Of a stretch of DNA of 64,000 nt, positions 37,301-43,300 are shown in pieces. Where the stretch lies: assembly GCA_964252035.1 (NCBI GenBank), contig OZ176200.1; one strand, given 5' to 3'. The position numbers were made by a program. This DNA comes from Podarcis erhardii. Its lineage: Eukaryota. Positions within the stretch are counted from its first letter, which is position 1; every line of letters starts with the position of its first letter.

Positions 37301-40300
37301 AGATGTAAAGAAAAGGAAGGTACCTTTTACCATATGTGGTGGGAATGTAGACATATTAAAAAGTTATGGGAAATGATATACAATGAATTGAAAAAAAAAT
37401 GTTTAAAATAACATTTGTAAAAAAGCCAGAAGCCTTTTTGATAGGTATTTTAGATCAAGAATTACCAAAATTAGAAGCCTGGAGAAATGCCAACAAAAGA
37501 ACAATGGCAAGAAAAATTGGTGAACTACGCAGAGTTAGCGAAGTTAACAGACAAATTACATGAAAAAGATAACAGTGACTTCAAAAAGGAATGGGAGCTA
37601 TTTACAGTCTACTTGCAGAAACAACAAAAATAAATGGACTCATTGGCAGGATTTGAATAAACTTTCACAATTTTATTGAGTTTAAACATAGAGGACAATA
37701 TTGCAACAACACCTAATAGTATATATACATGCAGAATATAACAATGTAACAAACCAGAAGGGGAAGTTGAGGGAAGTCGGGTGGGGAGGGAGAAGACTGT
37801 AAATGTAACGCTAAGGTAGGATTGGATATTGATATGTGATATATGGAATTTGCAATTATAAAACCGCAATAAAATTTTATTTTTTTAAAAAAACAACCCA
37901 AAACCTATCTGATAAGCATTGTGTGTATGTACCACTATTCTATCCAACCATTATGCCTCTATGTCATTTAGCTGTTTGGGGCATGAATCAGGCAGTTTTC
38001 GCAAGCTGGAAAAAAGTGTTTTATGCTCCCCCTTTGTCACATTCCTAAGTTCGTGTGGGATGCTGATGGCAAGTGAAAACCTGGGAATGCAAAAGCCTGA
38101 TTTGTGTGATTTTTCTTTCTTCTGAGATGGGAATCATTGTTTGAATTGTGTAGCTTCATGTGAAGGTGACTACATGGAGTAGGAAGAGAAAGGAGGAAAA
38201 CTTGAGGTGGACCCCGAAGTATGCTTTATTGAACCCAAAGCTGTTCAAATATAAATTGTTCTTCAGGAGCACAACCAAATCCCTTGGTCTTGAAATTCTT
38301 TTGCAAAATACATGGTGTGCCCATGTCTCATACTAGCTATATGCATGACTGAGGGAAGAAATGTATATTCTGTGCTGGAAGATAAGAGGTCTTGATGCTG
38401 GCCAGTCATTTTGACTTGACACTTTTAAACCCCCTTAGAGAGAGGCTTAGCAGTAGTAGGCTGCAGGGCTCTAAACTTAAGGAACTAGAGTCAGTCATGG
38501 CTTCCCTGTAAAAAAACACCAAAAAAAAAAAAAAACCACACATGGAAAATGCAGCTTGTTAAGGGTACTGAAAGTACTGTTATATCATTTTATAGTATGC
38601 TACCTGCACAGATTGGTTGTGTGCCATCCAGCCTTCACACCAATTAGTGACCTGGGTCTGGATTCTGGACTCAGTCTGGAGGAACATTTGAATTAAATGA
38701 ATGGAATTAGGTGCATTAAAAATGGCATCTGGAGCCAACCATCTAGGCTGGATGGTAGGAAGAAAAGAGAATCTAATTTAGTGTTTCAACACACACATTT
38801 TTTTTTTTTTTTAGATTTTATTGGGGGGTACTATTGCTGCAGTTTTGTGTAAGCACAGTAAAATTCTCTTTTTAAAGAGAAGCTTGCTCTTTTTTTCTAA
38901 AGTACGTATTCATAAAAAATAATGTTATGAAATTCTCCAACTGAAGTGGCATTTGGGGCATAATAGAACCATGGAATAATAAAGGTGTGTAATTGGAAGA
39001 TTCTGCCCATCCTTAATGGCACACGTTGGGACTATATTCCTAGTCTTTTTTTTTTTTTTTTTAATAATATTTATTAAGAGTTTCCAATTATAACAATATA
39101 AAAAAAACAAAACATCCAAATTTAAGATCTTATTTTCCGTAACATCTTTCCAGGACTTCCCCTCCCCTCCCCCTCTTATATTCCAATTCTTACAAATAAA
39201 TTCAGCAATTTATTATCCCAAATTTTAACCTTATTATCATTAACCCAATTTAAAAATATTTTCCCATCTCCTAAGATCGACCTATTCCCTTCCGCGCGTT
39301 CCCCCCTTTAATATACATAATAGATTAAAATATAATAAAATAAAATATGATTTTGCAGCCTTTGGATTCCAAATTTCCCTCCCCCTTTTCCTGGTTGCGT
39401 TCCCCATATTGATCAACATCTGATGTCTTCCTGGAGCTCCCACATTTATTTAAACCATAGTCCTTTACCAGTCTTCTTTAATTTTAAATGTCCAATCTTG
39501 GAAGGAGTCTATCTCAAAAAGGCCCATTTTTTCCATCCAGATTTTTATATACTTGGGAGTAAAACTGCAATTTTATTTCTTAAACCTTTCAAATCTGGAT
39601 GTCCCAAATGTTCCCACTTCCAACTTTGTCCAATTCTTATTATTCTTGTTGTTCTTGTTAATCTCTCTCCTCTTTCTTTTCCTGTTTTCCTGCACAAATG
39701 TTCTAATTCCAAAAGCTTCTAAATTCCACTGCAGAGGCTCTGTTATTCAGGAACGAAACATGATGCCAAGTCCCTTCCATTTTTCAATAGATAAGTCTAT
39801 TGTCTACTTTAGTGTGTAAACCTCTGTAGCCAAAATAATGTTCCATTTCTGCAGTTTCCCAGGAGATAAAAAGTTCTGTCAAATTCGATGCCAACAACTT
39901 GTAATATCCCTCGGCTCCTCTAGGTGGATTGTAGTAACTCAGTTCCCTTCCAGATCACGTCCACCAGTCAAAGTAACTTATTATTCCTTGTTTTAAACAT
40001 TTTGTATCCAATTTGTAACAAATATAACCGGCAAAGTCCTCGTAACAAAGTTCTCATTATTGTTCTTCTGCTTTGACAGCTCTTTGACAGCTGTCAAAAC
40101 CTCTCCTTGTCTTCTCCCGGCGCTCTAACTAAAACGCTCCCAGGTTCCGGGGGGGGGGGGTTGCTTTTTGAATAAATTCCACTTTTCTCCTCCAGCTCAA
40201 TCTTATAATTTTCCATCGCGAAATTTCATAACTTTATCAAAATAAGGTTGCGCTCAATCTTAGATGTTAAGTCCTTTACTTTAGCTCCTCTACAACAGGG

Positions 40301-43300
40301 GGGGGCCTGACTTCCTTTTTATGCCTCCCCCGCTCGTTCCGAATTCTTTAAAAATTTCTCACCTTTTTTAATCCAAGTTCCGATTACTCACGGGTTATGC
40401 TTTTAAGTCCAAATTTCCAATGGAAGAAGTCAGCGCTCTCCGTCGAATGGCATGCGGCTTCGCTCGGCAGGGGAAGCGGAGGACTCAAAGCACCACCCGT
40501 TCCGTAGCCTTTAAAAAGGCTCCTTCGCGGGTCGGGGGGGGCTCAAAAGGTGCCAGCCGAGTCACCATGTGCATGGGTTTTAGCGCCCATGGTTTTTGAG
40601 GGTCCCCGCGTCGCCGGCGTGGCAGGACCCAGCCCCTACCGAGCAGGCTCCCTCCGGAGCTCGGAGGGAGTCCGCCATTCGGCGATGGCGCCAACCCGGA
40701 AGTCCTATATTCCTAGTCTGGGCTTCATGCAATAACATTTGCAACCTGCAAACTTGTGGTAGAGCAGATCACATGGAATGTCCCCACCCCAGTCCAGCAG
40801 GTGGTTGCTGGAGTCAGACATGTTCATCCTTATTCTCTCCAGGTCAGCACCAATGTCATTTCTCTTCAGTGTTTCTGCCATCACAGCCGCATCGCCACTT
40901 TTGCAGTCTCCTCTACATTTCTGTTAGCATCCTCCAAATCACTTTGAAGTTGAGAAACAGTAGTTTCCATCTTCTTCTTTTGTGTGGCCTCAAGAAGCTA
41001 CCCTCCTGTTTTATCTTTCTGCCACAGCTGCTCATGTTTGGCCTGCTTGAGATTAGCTTTACACTCAACCATAGGGTTGCCAGATTTCAAAAAGTAAAAC
41101 CCAGGACACCCTGGAAGTTATTGAGCTTTTTTTATATACACACACCCGAAATGTTGGTTCCTCACACTTTTGCTTCTGCAGCCCCCTGAGGCAGGAGACT
41201 CAATAGGAAAGAGAGAGATTCTAAAATTCAACACATCCCTTCCATTCACAGAAGGCTCCACTGGAACAAAGAGCCTTCCGTGAGTGGAGGAAAACTATTG
41301 GATAAAACTCCTTATTTATTTAAACCTTTTAAAACCACATCTCATTGCAATTGCCCTCATAAAGCAGTGTGCAAATTAATTGCACAATAAGCATAACTCT
41401 TGGCACTGAAATATTTTTCCCAGTTAACTGCAATGTTTCTGTTACATTCAAAACATTTTAGTTTTAAGAAAATCTGCAAGTACAGCAGCCAACGCTTGAA
41501 ATCTTGGTTCTCTGGAATCTTTCCCTAGAATGAGATTATATAAACTTTGTCCTTTTTATATTGGCCAAGCCTTGGAATTGCCTCCAAGCAATTTTATACA
41601 TGCTAGTTTACTGTCAAAATGCACAGTATCCCTGATGGAGCGTTTTTTGGGTGGGGGGGGGAGCAGACCTTTATCTCACTTTTGTTTAGTTTTTTAAACA
41701 AGTCAGAGAATATCCCCATCTGTTTCTTTGCAGATGAAACTATAGAGTCTTTCATTAGCCCTGAGAATTCATCTCTCAAAAAATCCCAGTGTTGTTGATG
41801 CTGGTTAAATTCATGAAGTCTAATGAGAATTTATTCGTCCCCCTGAATTGCACATACTGTTCTTGTTTGAAATGCCTCAGGCTATTTTTAGCCTTTAAAA
41901 TGCAAGATATCAGAACCATAGATCACCCTCGATTGAACAGGGTTTGATCCCTCTCCACCCCCACCCTGATTTTTTTAGGATTTCATGTCTCTGGTGTATG
42001 CAGCCTGTGGTCTTCTAGTTTTTTGGGTTTTTTTAATATAGTTTTTTTTCTTCTTCTTTTGGAAGCTGTCTCTCTTGAGAACATAACTGGGTTATATTGG
42101 AGACATATAATTTAATATTAGATTAAATTACATCAGATTCAGTGACGCCTGCAACACCGGTTAGATTCCCCAAACAATTCTGGGAAATGATTCCCCAAAT
42201 TTCATGGGAAAAGAAGAGAACTAGAACGTCACATTTGCCTCATGCACATTAGCTCAAAATAGTAAAGAGAGGGAGAAAAAGCAATATTTTGCAGGGTCAT
42301 GTAAAACATCTACTTAAAGTATTACAAGCTCTTTCAAGCACCAATGCCATGGATTACACATTCAAGTTAAAATCTAGTGTACTTGCTTGTGACCAATAAC
42401 CACCTTGATTTTTCATATTTTCCCTCTCCTTACATTTTATCTTTAATAGGTGGCCAGTTTCTTAAAATCTGCTTCTTGCTGTGACTCCACATTGTGTGCA
42501 TTGAGTATGAATCAAAACCACGTTGCAGAGGCGTGCATGTGAATAGTGTTACCTTGTGAGCAGGTCTCATCTTGCAGGCCTTTCCCATTTTCAAAATGCT
42601 GTCAGCGACTCCCATCCCAGGAAAGTCTAAAGATAAGGGCAGATTTCTTACCGTCCTTTTTTTATTCACAGAGAGAGGCTATAGAATCCGGCCTCTTGGA
42701 TAATGGTGTTGTCCCGAGTGAATCTCCAGCCCCCGTCTCTCCCACTTCCTCATTCATCACTTCCTCATTCATCACCTCTATGGGTGCTGCTACGTGCCCT
42801 CTGTCTTTGAGCTCTTTGTTCTCCTACTTTCAAGGCTCTCTGGGTTCTGGGAGAGGGGAGTCTGGAATGCTTTCTAATGACGTCTCTGCCAGGTGTTGCT
42901 CTGGCTCTCCTATGATTTCCCAACTTTCCCCCTCATCTGCCTCTGAGCTGTGACCTCCCTCAGACCCCTGTTGTAAATCTATACTGTTTTCCTCTTCCTC
43001 CTCCCTGGAAGGGTCAGGCTGAGGAGGTGATCTTCACCATTCTTCCTCTGCCCAGTTCCTGACACCCATTGAGACACCCTTTGGCAGGTCATAAAATCCA
43101 ATGGAAAGTCTTATATAAATTAGGTGGCTCACATATCCTCACTGTTCCATAGAATACCATAGAATTGTATCGAGTTGGAAGGGACCCTGAGGATCATCTA
43201 ATCTAACCCCCTGCAATGCAGGAAAATGCAGCTGTCCATTACTGGGATCGAACCTACAACCGTGACATTGTCGGCACCATGCTCTCATCAGCTGAGCTAT

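What the first reader, a model, noticed from the sequence alone, without database searches (positions are those of the whole stretch)
39032..40719. 1.66-kb complete, apparently non-coding L1-like retroelement with no ORF2
Seen: CpG-rich 5' end, AATAAA and poly(A), a G-rich tract about 100 nt before the tail (as in the two L1 3' UTRs at about 25000 and 37780), and a perfect 15-bp TSD. The six-frame track shows no - strand ORF across 39120-40480, and I see no RT or endonuclease motif. Established: half-L1 (HAL1) and other non-autonomous derivatives are mobilised by L1 in trans. Inference: this is a full-length non-autonomous pol II LINE derivative that may be an unnamed squamate family rather than a truncation.
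Basis: partly seen in the sequence, partly recalled or inferred. Interest (0 to 1): 0.65.

Follow-up and report, generated by a model that had tools for sequence, protein, structure and literature searches.

The report
ORF-less L1-tailed retrocopy in lizard intron
A 1.66-kb stretch in a lizard gene intron is a recently inserted, non-coding retrocopy that ends like a LINE-1 element and was almost certainly pasted in by LINE-1 enzymes; it is a fairly ordinary kind of insertion unless it turns out to have many copies.

Summary
On the minus strand, 39047-40704 is a 1,658-nt insert. It has a perfect 15-bp target-site duplication, a pure A16 tail, and AATAAA 7 nt before the tail. A G-rich tract lies about 100 nt upstream of the tail, and the first ~500 nt are CpG-rich (o/e 0.84-1.18; flanks 0.11-0.14). 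The longest sense ORF is 75 aa stop-to-stop and 45 aa from an ATG. No RT, endonuclease or ORF1 signal was found.

New result: the last ~150 nt align sense-to-sense with the 3' UTR end of a young truncated L1 14 kb away (96 matches, 43 mismatches). None of 1,000 shuffles and none of 959 random window pieces reached that score. The body is more purine-rich than all 602 other same-size windows, and the runners-up are LINE fragments.

The host is a lacertid lizard. The insert lies antisense between two C2-domain exons.

Best reading: an ORF-less L1 derivative mobilised in trans. Not testable here: genomic copy number, whether the head is an L1 5' UTR, and Dfam/Repbase membership. A one-off aberrant L1 transcript, or a host-promoter/L1 chimera, remains possible. 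Interest is modest.

The parts
40705..40719 (.). Target-site duplication, copy next to the element's 5' end (CTATATTCCTAGTCT on +)
   Evidence: 15/15 identical to 39032-39046; only 2 matches in the window
40105..40704 (-). CpG-rich head (element 1-600). It starts with G directly after the TSD. It carries ACTTCCGG at 40696-40703 (element 2-9) and two ATGGCGS cores at 40685-40691 and 40672-40678. It also has three homopolymer C runs in sense: 40534-40541, 40298-40305 and 40149-40160.
   Evidence: GC 0.66-0.45; CpG o/e 0.84-1.18 over element 1-500; motif positions; C runs. Calling the motifs ETS-like and YY1-like is from recall.
39218..40104 (-). Non-coding, A/G-rich, C-poor body (element 601-1487). 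CpG-free between element ~951 and 1305. Unused AATAAA sites at element 1128 and 1255.
   Evidence: measured on element 401-1487: purine 0.602, C 0.134; more extreme than 602 of 602 other windows; no ORF, no domain, no ORF2 similarity
39066..39217 (-). L1-type 3' UTR module (element 1488-1639). Includes the G-rich tract at 39159-39173 and the used AATAAA at 39070-39075.
   Evidence: aligns sense-to-sense with the L1 3' UTR end at 24963-25101 (96 matches, 43 mismatches, 13 gap columns). Score 26 against shuffles 14.2+-2.1, reached by 0 of 1000 shuffles and 0 of 959 random window pieces. Reciprocal best hit.
39047..39062 (-). Poly(A) tail, 16 uninterrupted A
39032..39046 (.). Target-site duplication, copy next to the tail
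24256..25119 (+). Comparator, not part of the element: a young 5'-truncated L1 ('L1a') with the ORF2 C-terminus, a 287-nt 3' UTR and a tail. It is flanked by a perfect 19-bp TSD at 24237-24255 and 25120-25138.

Best explanation
The insert is an ORF-less derivative of a lizard L1. It is a ~1.64-kb polyadenylated pol II transcript made of a CpG-rich promoter-like head, a non-coding A/G-rich body and an L1-type 3' UTR end. L1 proteins supplied in trans copied it into the genome.

**Shown**
- The insertion has the hallmarks of target-primed reverse transcription: a 15-bp TSD, an A16 tail and a used AATAAA.
- It is young: the TSD is perfect, the tail is pure, and the CpGs are undecayed while the flanks are CpG-depleted.
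- It encodes nothing recognisable.
- Its 3' ~150 nt are related to an L1 3' UTR in the same window.
- Its strand composition is LINE-like.

**Inferred**
- L1 ORF2p bound the poly(A) of this RNA. It nicked the bottom strand at 5'-..AGTCT|GGGC..-3', primed on the tail and copied the RNA to its 5' end. The second nick fell 15 bp away.
- The head (ACTTCCGG at +2 and two ATGGCGS cores within +14 to +33) acts as an internal promoter. That would let daughter copies be transcribed, so the sequence could propagate as a non-autonomous lineage.

Confidence that the L1 machinery inserted a non-coding RNA here is about 0.9. Confidence that the 3' end is L1-derived is about 0.75. The figure given in the confidence field is for the full claim: a self-transcribing, ORF-less L1 derivative rather than a one-off product.
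For: - TSD, tail and AATAAA.
- A neighbouring truncated L1 has a perfect 19-bp TSD, so L1 retrotransposition with TSDs of this size is recent in this genome.
- The 3' module matches the L1a 3' UTR end: blastn E=8e-7 over 171 nt. The local score is 26 against 14.2+-2.1 in shuffles, reached by 0 of 1000 shuffles and 0 of 959 random window pieces. It is the reciprocal best hit at E=8e-6, with the next hit at E=0.06.
- Both sequences end in ..CTTAATAAATATT just before the tail.
- The whole element has a purine asymmetry of 0.088, above 590 of 590 other windows.
- The body alone has a purine fraction of 0.602 and C of 0.134, above 602 of 602 other windows. The runners-up are the two L1 pieces and two regions that I read by eye as CR1-like.
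- Sense composition is A .335, C .158, G .253, T .254, against L1a at .350/.154/.228/.269.
- There are 17 T>=4 runs and no tRNA or Rfam head, so pol III is excluded.
- ACTTCCGG occurs once in 64 kb, at element positions 2-9. Two of the 4 ATGGCGS sites in the window lie at element 14-20 and 27-33.
Against: - No second copy or fragment of the first 1,487 nt lies in the other 62 kb. This only bounds the density to below about 1 per 21 kb.
- The head was not compared with any L1 5' UTR, because none is in the window.
- The 3' similarity is modest: 69% of 139 aligned pairs, to one L1 only. Against the second L1 3' UTR it is not significant (314 of 1000 shuffles reach the score).
- The nick site TCT|GGG does not fit the TTTT|AA preference recalled for L1 endonuclease.
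- The window-wide counts of the two promoter motifs are not above chance. Only their clustering at the 5' end is notable, and their names come from recall.
Confidence: 0.4

Rival explanations
1. It is a one-off, dead-on-arrival copy of an aberrant L1 mRNA. A full-length L1 transcript lost both ORFs, by splicing from the 5' UTR into the 3' UTR or by an internal deletion in the source copy, and was retrotransposed once. This would be a SpIRE-like product.
For: It shares the evidence for the best explanation: the L1-type 3' end, LINE-like composition and a CpG-rich promoter-like head. No other copy is in the window. Spliced L1 mRNAs are known to retrotranspose in humans and are generally dead ends (PMC5860796, abstract read).
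Against: Known SpIREs keep most of the coding sequence (intra-5'UTR or 5'UTR/ORF1 splices; same abstract), whereas nothing coding is left here. About 1.1 kb of body lies between the CpG-rich head and the L1-like 3' module. That body would have to be UTR sequence of an L1 with unusually long UTRs, since the two L1 3' UTRs in the window are about 255-290 nt.
Confidence: 0.22
2. It is a host-promoter/L1 chimera or a processed copy of a host non-coding RNA. Either a host CpG-island promoter transcribed a non-coding RNA that ends in, and is polyadenylated by, an old L1 3' fragment, or the reverse transcriptase switched templates from an L1 3' end to a host RNA. L1 retrocopied the product once.
For: The CpG-island-like 5' end, with ACTTCCGG and ATGGCGS cores just after the start, is also what housekeeping-type host promoters look like (recall; positions). 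Only the last ~150 nt show L1 similarity. L1 chimeras with mRNAs and lncRNAs, 5' transductions and co-opted promoters are described for human L1 (bioRxiv 10.1101/2025.02.02.635956, abstract and section headings read). No other copy is in the window.
Against: The 1,087-nt body outside the L1-like module has a purine and C-poor bias more extreme than 602 of 602 other windows, and that bias is otherwise seen at LINE fragments. Ordinary host sequence in this window does not look like that. No remnant of a host coding sequence was found.
Confidence: 0.28
3. It is an ordinary L1 product. Either it is a 5'-truncated L1 whose 3' UTR exceeds 1.6 kb, or it is a prematurely polyadenylated 5' UTR/ORF1 piece that has since decayed.
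For: L1-like tail architecture. Four AATAAA sites in the sense strand show that internal polyadenylation signals exist.
Against: There is no ORF2 C-terminus, no zinc knuckle and no ORF1 domain. The insertion is too young for decay to have erased an ORF: the TSD is perfect, the tail is pure A16 and the CpGs are intact. The end matches a genuine L1 3' UTR terminus, so polyadenylation was not premature. The 5' end is CpG-rich and promoter-like, not a random truncation point.
Confidence: 0.05

Closest known systems
HAL1 (half-L1) non-autonomous L1 derivatives of mammals
   Same: Derived from L1, lacks ORF2, and is presumed to be mobilised by L1 in trans. PMC5753468 (passage read) states that HAL1 is a non-autonomous derivative of L1 that encodes only ORF1p.
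   Different: HAL1 keeps ORF1. This element has no ORF1 domain in any sense fragment and no ORF above 75 aa. HAL1 is mammalian, and this host is a lacertid lizard.
Sadhu non-coding retroposons of Arabidopsis
   Same: Non-autonomous, LINE-mobilised retroposons whose target sites are consistent with TPRT (PMC2848041, abstract read). That they are poly(A)-tailed, about 1 kb long and lack coding capacity is my recollection.
   Different: Sadhu is a plant family with known moderate copy number. Here only one copy has been seen, and the 3' end is visibly L1-like.
SpIREs (spliced integrated retrotransposed L1 elements, human)
   Same: L1 RNAs that lost internal sequence before retrotransposition. They carry L1 hallmarks and depend partly on proteins supplied in trans (PMC5860796, abstract and section headings read).
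   Different: SpIREs lose parts of the 5' UTR or ORF1 only. Here all coding sequence is absent, and no parent L1 was available to locate splice sites.
L1 chimeric insertions and 5' transductions (U6/L1, mRNA/L1, lncRNA/L1)
   Same: A single TSD-flanked insertion with a non-L1 5' part and an L1 3' part (10.1101/2025.02.02.635956, abstract read).
   Different: The non-L1-matching part here has LINE-like composition. No host parent could be sought.
SVA/LAVA-type composite pol II non-autonomous retroposons (primates; recalled)
   Same: Pol II transcribed, kilobase-sized, non-coding, polyadenylated and L1-mobilised.
   Different: No hexamer repeat, VNTR or SINE-derived modules. TRF finds only short arrays of at most 32 nt.

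Membership tests
L1-mediated (TPRT) retroposition insertion | Target-site duplication directly flanking the insert | tested here: met
   15/15 bp, abutting the tail and the 5' end
L1-mediated (TPRT) retroposition insertion | 3' poly(A) tail preceded by a polyadenylation signal | tested here: met
   A16 tail; AATAAA ends 7 nt before it
L1-mediated (TPRT) retroposition insertion | Endonuclease nick at a T-rich site (TTTT|AA; consensus recalled) | tested here: not met
   The bottom strand reads ..AGTCT|GGGC... The neighbouring L1a has ..GGTTT|GACT... Non-consensus sites are tolerated, so this lowers the claim only slightly.
Autonomous L1 | ORF2 with endonuclease and reverse transcriptase | tested here: not met
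   0 of 52 lacertid ORF2 proteins match better than E=0.15. No Pfam RVT or Exo_endo_phos domain was found.
Autonomous L1 / HAL1 | ORF1 (Transposase_22-type) | tested here: not met
   32 of 32 sense fragments >=20 aa gave no such hit at E<=10. Fragments under 20 aa (1,449 of 4,974 frame-nt) were not scanned.
L1-derived element | 3' UTR end homologous to that of an L1 of the same genome | tested here: met
   Element 1488-1639 against L1a 24963-25101: 0 of 1000 shuffles and 0 of 959 random pieces reach the score; reciprocal best hit. Not significant against the second L1.
L1-derived element | 5' UTR homologous to an L1 5' UTR | not testable with these tools
   No full-length L1 is in the window, and no eukaryotic DNA collection is available.
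Interspersed repeat family (non-autonomous LINE derivative) | Multiple copies at unrelated loci, each with its own TSD | not testable with these tools
   No other copy is in the window. Protein-level proxies found nothing, but those sets hold only annotated lizard proteins, so this says little. Dfam and Repbase are not available.
SINE | Pol III head (tRNA/7SL/5S) and short length | tested here: not met
   ARAGORN found 0 genes. Rfam gave 0 at gathering score and only two chance-level matches at E~0.7-0.8. There are 17 T>=4 runs, and the element is 1,658 nt long.
Processed pseudogene of a protein-coding gene | Recognisable, possibly decayed, coding sequence of a host gene | tested here: not met
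   No Pfam domain below E=0.015 and none meeting its cut-off. The longest ATG ORF is 45 aa.
Retrocopy of a host non-coding RNA / 5' transduction | A unique parent locus elsewhere in the genome | not testable with these tools
   No access to the host genome.

The most novel reading that the evidence does not exclude
It is a member of a currently active, lacertid-specific family of ORF-less pol II retroposons. On this reading it is an L1 'hyper-parasite' that keeps only an internal CpG-island promoter (ETS/YY1-like sites at +2 to +33) and an L1-type 3' end, and has replicated long enough without coding capacity to lose all protein similarity. That would be a squamate counterpart of SVA or Sadhu rather than of HAL1.
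Probability: 0.3. Interest if true: 0.55.

Novelty: new member of a known kind. Interest (0 to 1): 0.3.

Why it matters
Squamate genomes carry many co-existing L1 lineages, but kilobase-sized, pol II-driven, ORF-less L1 parasites are known to me mainly from primates (SVA) and plants (Sadhu). My literature searches found no description of such an element in lizards (full text of the held library only).

If this sequence is multi-copy, it would offer a natural system to ask what minimal RNA features let a non-coding transcript capture L1 proteins in trans in a genome with many competing L1 families. If it is single-copy, it is just one more L1-mediated retrocopy. In that case it is useful only as a young, possibly polymorphic marker, and as a new antisense CpG island inside an intron of a C2-domain (synaptotagmin-like) gene.

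Tried and rejected
- **Whole-frame Pfam scan.** I then sent stop-free pieces by reference and found no transposon domain.
- **Decayed ORF2 C-terminus in the body.** tblastn with the window's two L1 ORF2 ends and with 52 lacertid ORF2 proteins gave only chance-level hits. No zinc knuckle is present.
- **Other copies in the window.** blastn at word size 9, relaxed blastn at word size 7, and nhmmer found none. Only the 3' end matches L1a.
- **Copies seen through protein sets.** The longest ORF (123 aa, antisense) gave 0 hits in the word-indexed set and 0 in the 1.84-billion representative set. The lizard content of those sets appears to be annotated proteins only, so this is uninformative. The third search of that kind was left unused for the same reason.
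- **Monomeric or tandem 5' UTR, or an SVA-like VNTR.** TRF and the repeat finder show only short arrays.
- **Small-RNA head.** Rfam and ARAGORN were negative.
- **Similarity of the 3' end to the second L1 (37232-37906).** Not significant, although the G-tract and following bases look alike by eye.
- **Literature.** Searches found no paper describing an ORF-less L1 derivative in lizards. PMC3787681 (passages read) says nothing about UTR lengths or non-autonomous L1. The HAL1 paper PMC2923044 is not held.

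
Full report
**Observation**

The finding's coordinates bracket a minus-strand insert, 39047-40704 (1,658 nt). It is flanked by the 15-nt direct repeat CTATATTCCTAGTCT at 39032-39046 and 40705-40719. That repeat has no other match in the window even with two mismatches, where 0.14 are expected.

Read on the minus strand, the insert has these features:
- It starts with G directly after the repeat.
- It ends in 16 uninterrupted A, with AATAAA ending 7 nt before the tail.
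- It carries GGGGGAGGGGAGGGG 96-110 nt before the tail.
- Its first 400 nt hold 32 of its 51 CpGs, with GC 0.575 and o/e 0.97. The window as a whole has o/e 0.279 and the two 1-kb flanks 0.11 and 0.14.

**Coding capacity**

- The longest sense stop-to-stop frame is 75 aa, at the very 5' end. It is at most 57 aa in the interior. The longest ATG-initiated sense ORF is 45 aa.
- Pfam at E<=10 gave no transposon-related domain in 13 of 13 sense ORFs >=40 aa. It also gave none in 32 of 32 sense fragments >=20 aa, which cover 3,525 of 4,974 frame-nucleotides. The best hits were unrelated families at E 0.015-0.26, all below their cut-offs.
- The two antisense ORFs of 123 and 121 aa also had no family.
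- tblastn with the window's own two L1 ORF2 C-termini and with 52 lacertid L1 ORF2 proteins gave nothing better than E=0.15.
- The ORF2 C-terminal zinc-knuckle pattern is absent from all six frames, although it is found in the L1 control.

The insertion is young, judged by its perfect TSD, pure tail and intact CpGs. The lack of ORFs is therefore a property of the source RNA and not of decay in place.

**Host and context**

A 200-aa L1 ORF2 C-terminus at 24219-24818 is 72-93% identical to many Podarcis muralis and P. lilfordi proteins among the top 21 hits listed. The window is therefore from a lacertid lizard and is not human.

Pfam finds C2 domains in + strand ORFs at 29343-30098 (E=3e-30) and 57104-57328 (E=2e-14). 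The insert thus lies antisense in an intron of a double-C2 gene. Calling it synaptotagmin-like is my reading. I scanned those exons singly and did not build or search a joined spliced model.

**What kind of transcript**

- The sense strand has 17 runs of four or more T.
- ARAGORN finds no tRNA-like head.
- Rfam finds nothing at gathering score, and only two chance-level matches at E about 0.7-0.8.
- With a used AATAAA and a length of 1.66 kb, this points to a pol II transcript.
- ACTTCCGG occurs once in the 64-kb window, at element positions 2-9. Two of the window's four ATGGCGS sites sit at element 14-20 (reverse orientation) and 27-33.

From recall, these are ETS-like and YY1-like cores. A YY1 site just downstream of the start directs accurate initiation in human L1 (Athanikar et al. 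2004; I saw only the title, in the reference list of PMC5860796). The window-wide counts are not above chance. Only the clustering at the 5' terminus is notable, and such sites also occur at host housekeeping promoters.

**Relation to L1 (the main new result)**

Self-comparison found no second copy of the element. It did find that the element's end resembles the end of an L1 3' UTR 14 kb away.
- With relaxed scoring, element 1488-1658 aligns sense-to-sense with 24963-25120 (E=8e-7).
- Excluding the tails, a local alignment pairs element 1488-1639 (window 39066-39217) with 24963-25101. It has 96 matches, 43 mismatches and 13 gap columns.
- Its score is 26, against 14.2+-2.1 for dinucleotide shuffles. 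None of 1,000 shuffles and none of 959 random same-size window pieces (maximum 20) reach it.
- It is a reciprocal best hit (E=8e-6, next best 0.06).
- Both sequences run through a G-rich tract and end in CTTAATAAATATT just before the tail.

That L1 ('L1a', 24256-25119) is itself a young 5'-truncated insertion with a perfect 19-bp TSD. L1 retrotransposition producing TSDs of this size is therefore recent in this genome.

Against the second, older L1 3' UTR (about 37634-37886) the similarity is not significant: 314 of 1,000 shuffles reach it. The two L1 3' UTRs are not significantly alike either, with 244 of 1,000 shuffles reaching that score.

**Composition**

- The element's sense strand is A .335, C .158, G .253, T .254, close to L1a at .350/.154/.228/.269. 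The window is .289/.204/.206/.301.
- Its purine asymmetry of 0.088 exceeds all 590 other 1,658-nt windows.
- The 1,087-nt body (element 401-1487), without the CpG head and the L1-like end, has a purine fraction of 0.602 and C of 0.134. Both are more extreme than all 602 other windows.
- The runners-up are L1a, the second L1, and two regions (34.7-35 kb on +, 52.9-53.1 kb on -) that I read by eye as decayed CR1-like reverse-transcriptase fragments. Pfam on their ORFs >=70 aa found nothing.

So the part with no detectable homology still looks like LINE sense strand and not like ordinary host sequence in this window.

**Mechanism**

Shown: an RNA ending at the AATAAA-directed site was reverse-transcribed into a staggered break 15 bp wide. 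Inferred, from the established L1 model:
1. L1 ORF2p engaged the poly(A) of this RNA in trans.
2. It nicked the bottom strand at ..AGTCT|GGGC.. (a non-consensus site) and primed on the tail.
3. It copied the RNA to its 5' end.

If the head is an internal promoter, daughter copies remain transcribable and a non-autonomous lineage can persist.

**What could not be settled**

Three questions decide between a family and a one-off:
- the copy number in the genome;
- whether the head and body match an L1 5' UTR or a unique host locus;
- whether Dfam or Repbase already lists the sequence.

No eukaryotic DNA collection or repeat library was available. Protein-set proxies with the longest ORF returned nothing, but the lizard content of those sets appears to be annotated proteins only. 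Finding no other copy in 62 kb bounds the density only to below about one per 21 kb.

I rank the readings as follows:

| Reading | Confidence |
|---|---|
| ORF-less, self-transcribing L1 derivative | 0.40 |
| Host-promoter/lncRNA-L1 chimera or retrocopy | 0.28 |
| One-off spliced or deleted L1 mRNA copy (SpIRE-like) | 0.22 |
| Truncation, or premature polyadenylation of an ordinary L1 | 0.05 |
| Other | remainder |

**Comparison with known elements**

- It works like the trans-mobilised, non-coding, polyadenylated retroposons: SVA (recalled) and Sadhu (PMC2848041, abstract).
- It is not HAL1, which encodes ORF1p (PMC5753468, passage).
- It is not a SINE.
- It is not shown to be a SpIRE (PMC5860796, abstract) or an L1 chimera (10.1101/2025.02.02.635956, abstract), though both remain possible.
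- My searches of the held literature found no ORF-less L1 derivative described in lizards. Supplementary repeat libraries could not be seen.

**Verdict**

This is a real, young, L1-mobilised, non-coding retrocopy with an L1-type 3' end. It is a new instance of a known kind, and its interest is modest unless a genome-wide search shows it to be a family.

Noticed in passing
window 24237-25138: A young 5'-truncated L1 (24256-25119: ORF2 C-terminus, 287-nt 3' UTR and tail), flanked by a perfect 19-bp TSD AAACCGTCGGAGCCTGCTG. It sits just upstream of a GC- and CpG-rich stretch (about 25250-25820) and of an ORF at 25984-26607 that looks by eye like the transmembrane first coding exon of the C2-domain gene.
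   Followed up: partly
window 37232-37906: A second, older L1 3' fragment on the + strand. Its ORF2 C-terminus is 33-40% identical to the five full-length Podarcis proteins printed, and it has frameshifts. No TSD of 9 nt or more was found.
   Followed up: partly
window 29343-30098 and 57104-57328 (+): Two C2-domain exons (Pfam E=3e-30 and 2e-14) of a host gene that spans most of the window. Scanned as separate ORFs only; the gene was not identified further.
   Followed up: partly
window about 34560-36130 (+) and about 52800-54000 (-): Two purine-rich stretches that read by eye as decayed CR1-like reverse-transcriptase fragments (..YADD.. and ..FADD.. contexts). Pfam on their ORFs >=70 aa found nothing.
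   Followed up: no
window 53368-53631: An insert of about 240 nt bounded by inverted repeats (..CAGTGGTACCTCGGGTTA.. / ..TAACCCGAGGTACCACTG..; 29-nt arms 86% complementary) and apparently by TA on each side. It is MITE-like and sits inside the CR1-like fragment. A third internal copy of the arm lies at 53528-53551.
   Followed up: partly
window 40149-40160, 40298-40305, 40534-40541: Three long homopolymer runs (C12, C8 and C8 on the element's sense strand) within the first 560 nt of the element. No repeat structure lies between them, and they remain unexplained.
   Followed up: no
window 38510-38535 and 38798-38812: An A-rich run (+) and a T15 run 235 nt from the element's tail. The T15 run is preceded on the - strand by AATAAA, so these may be tails of other small retroposons. 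No TSDs were sought.
   Followed up: no
window about 23790-23815: A (GT)n microsatellite upstream of the L1a insertion (seen in the printout).
   Followed up: no
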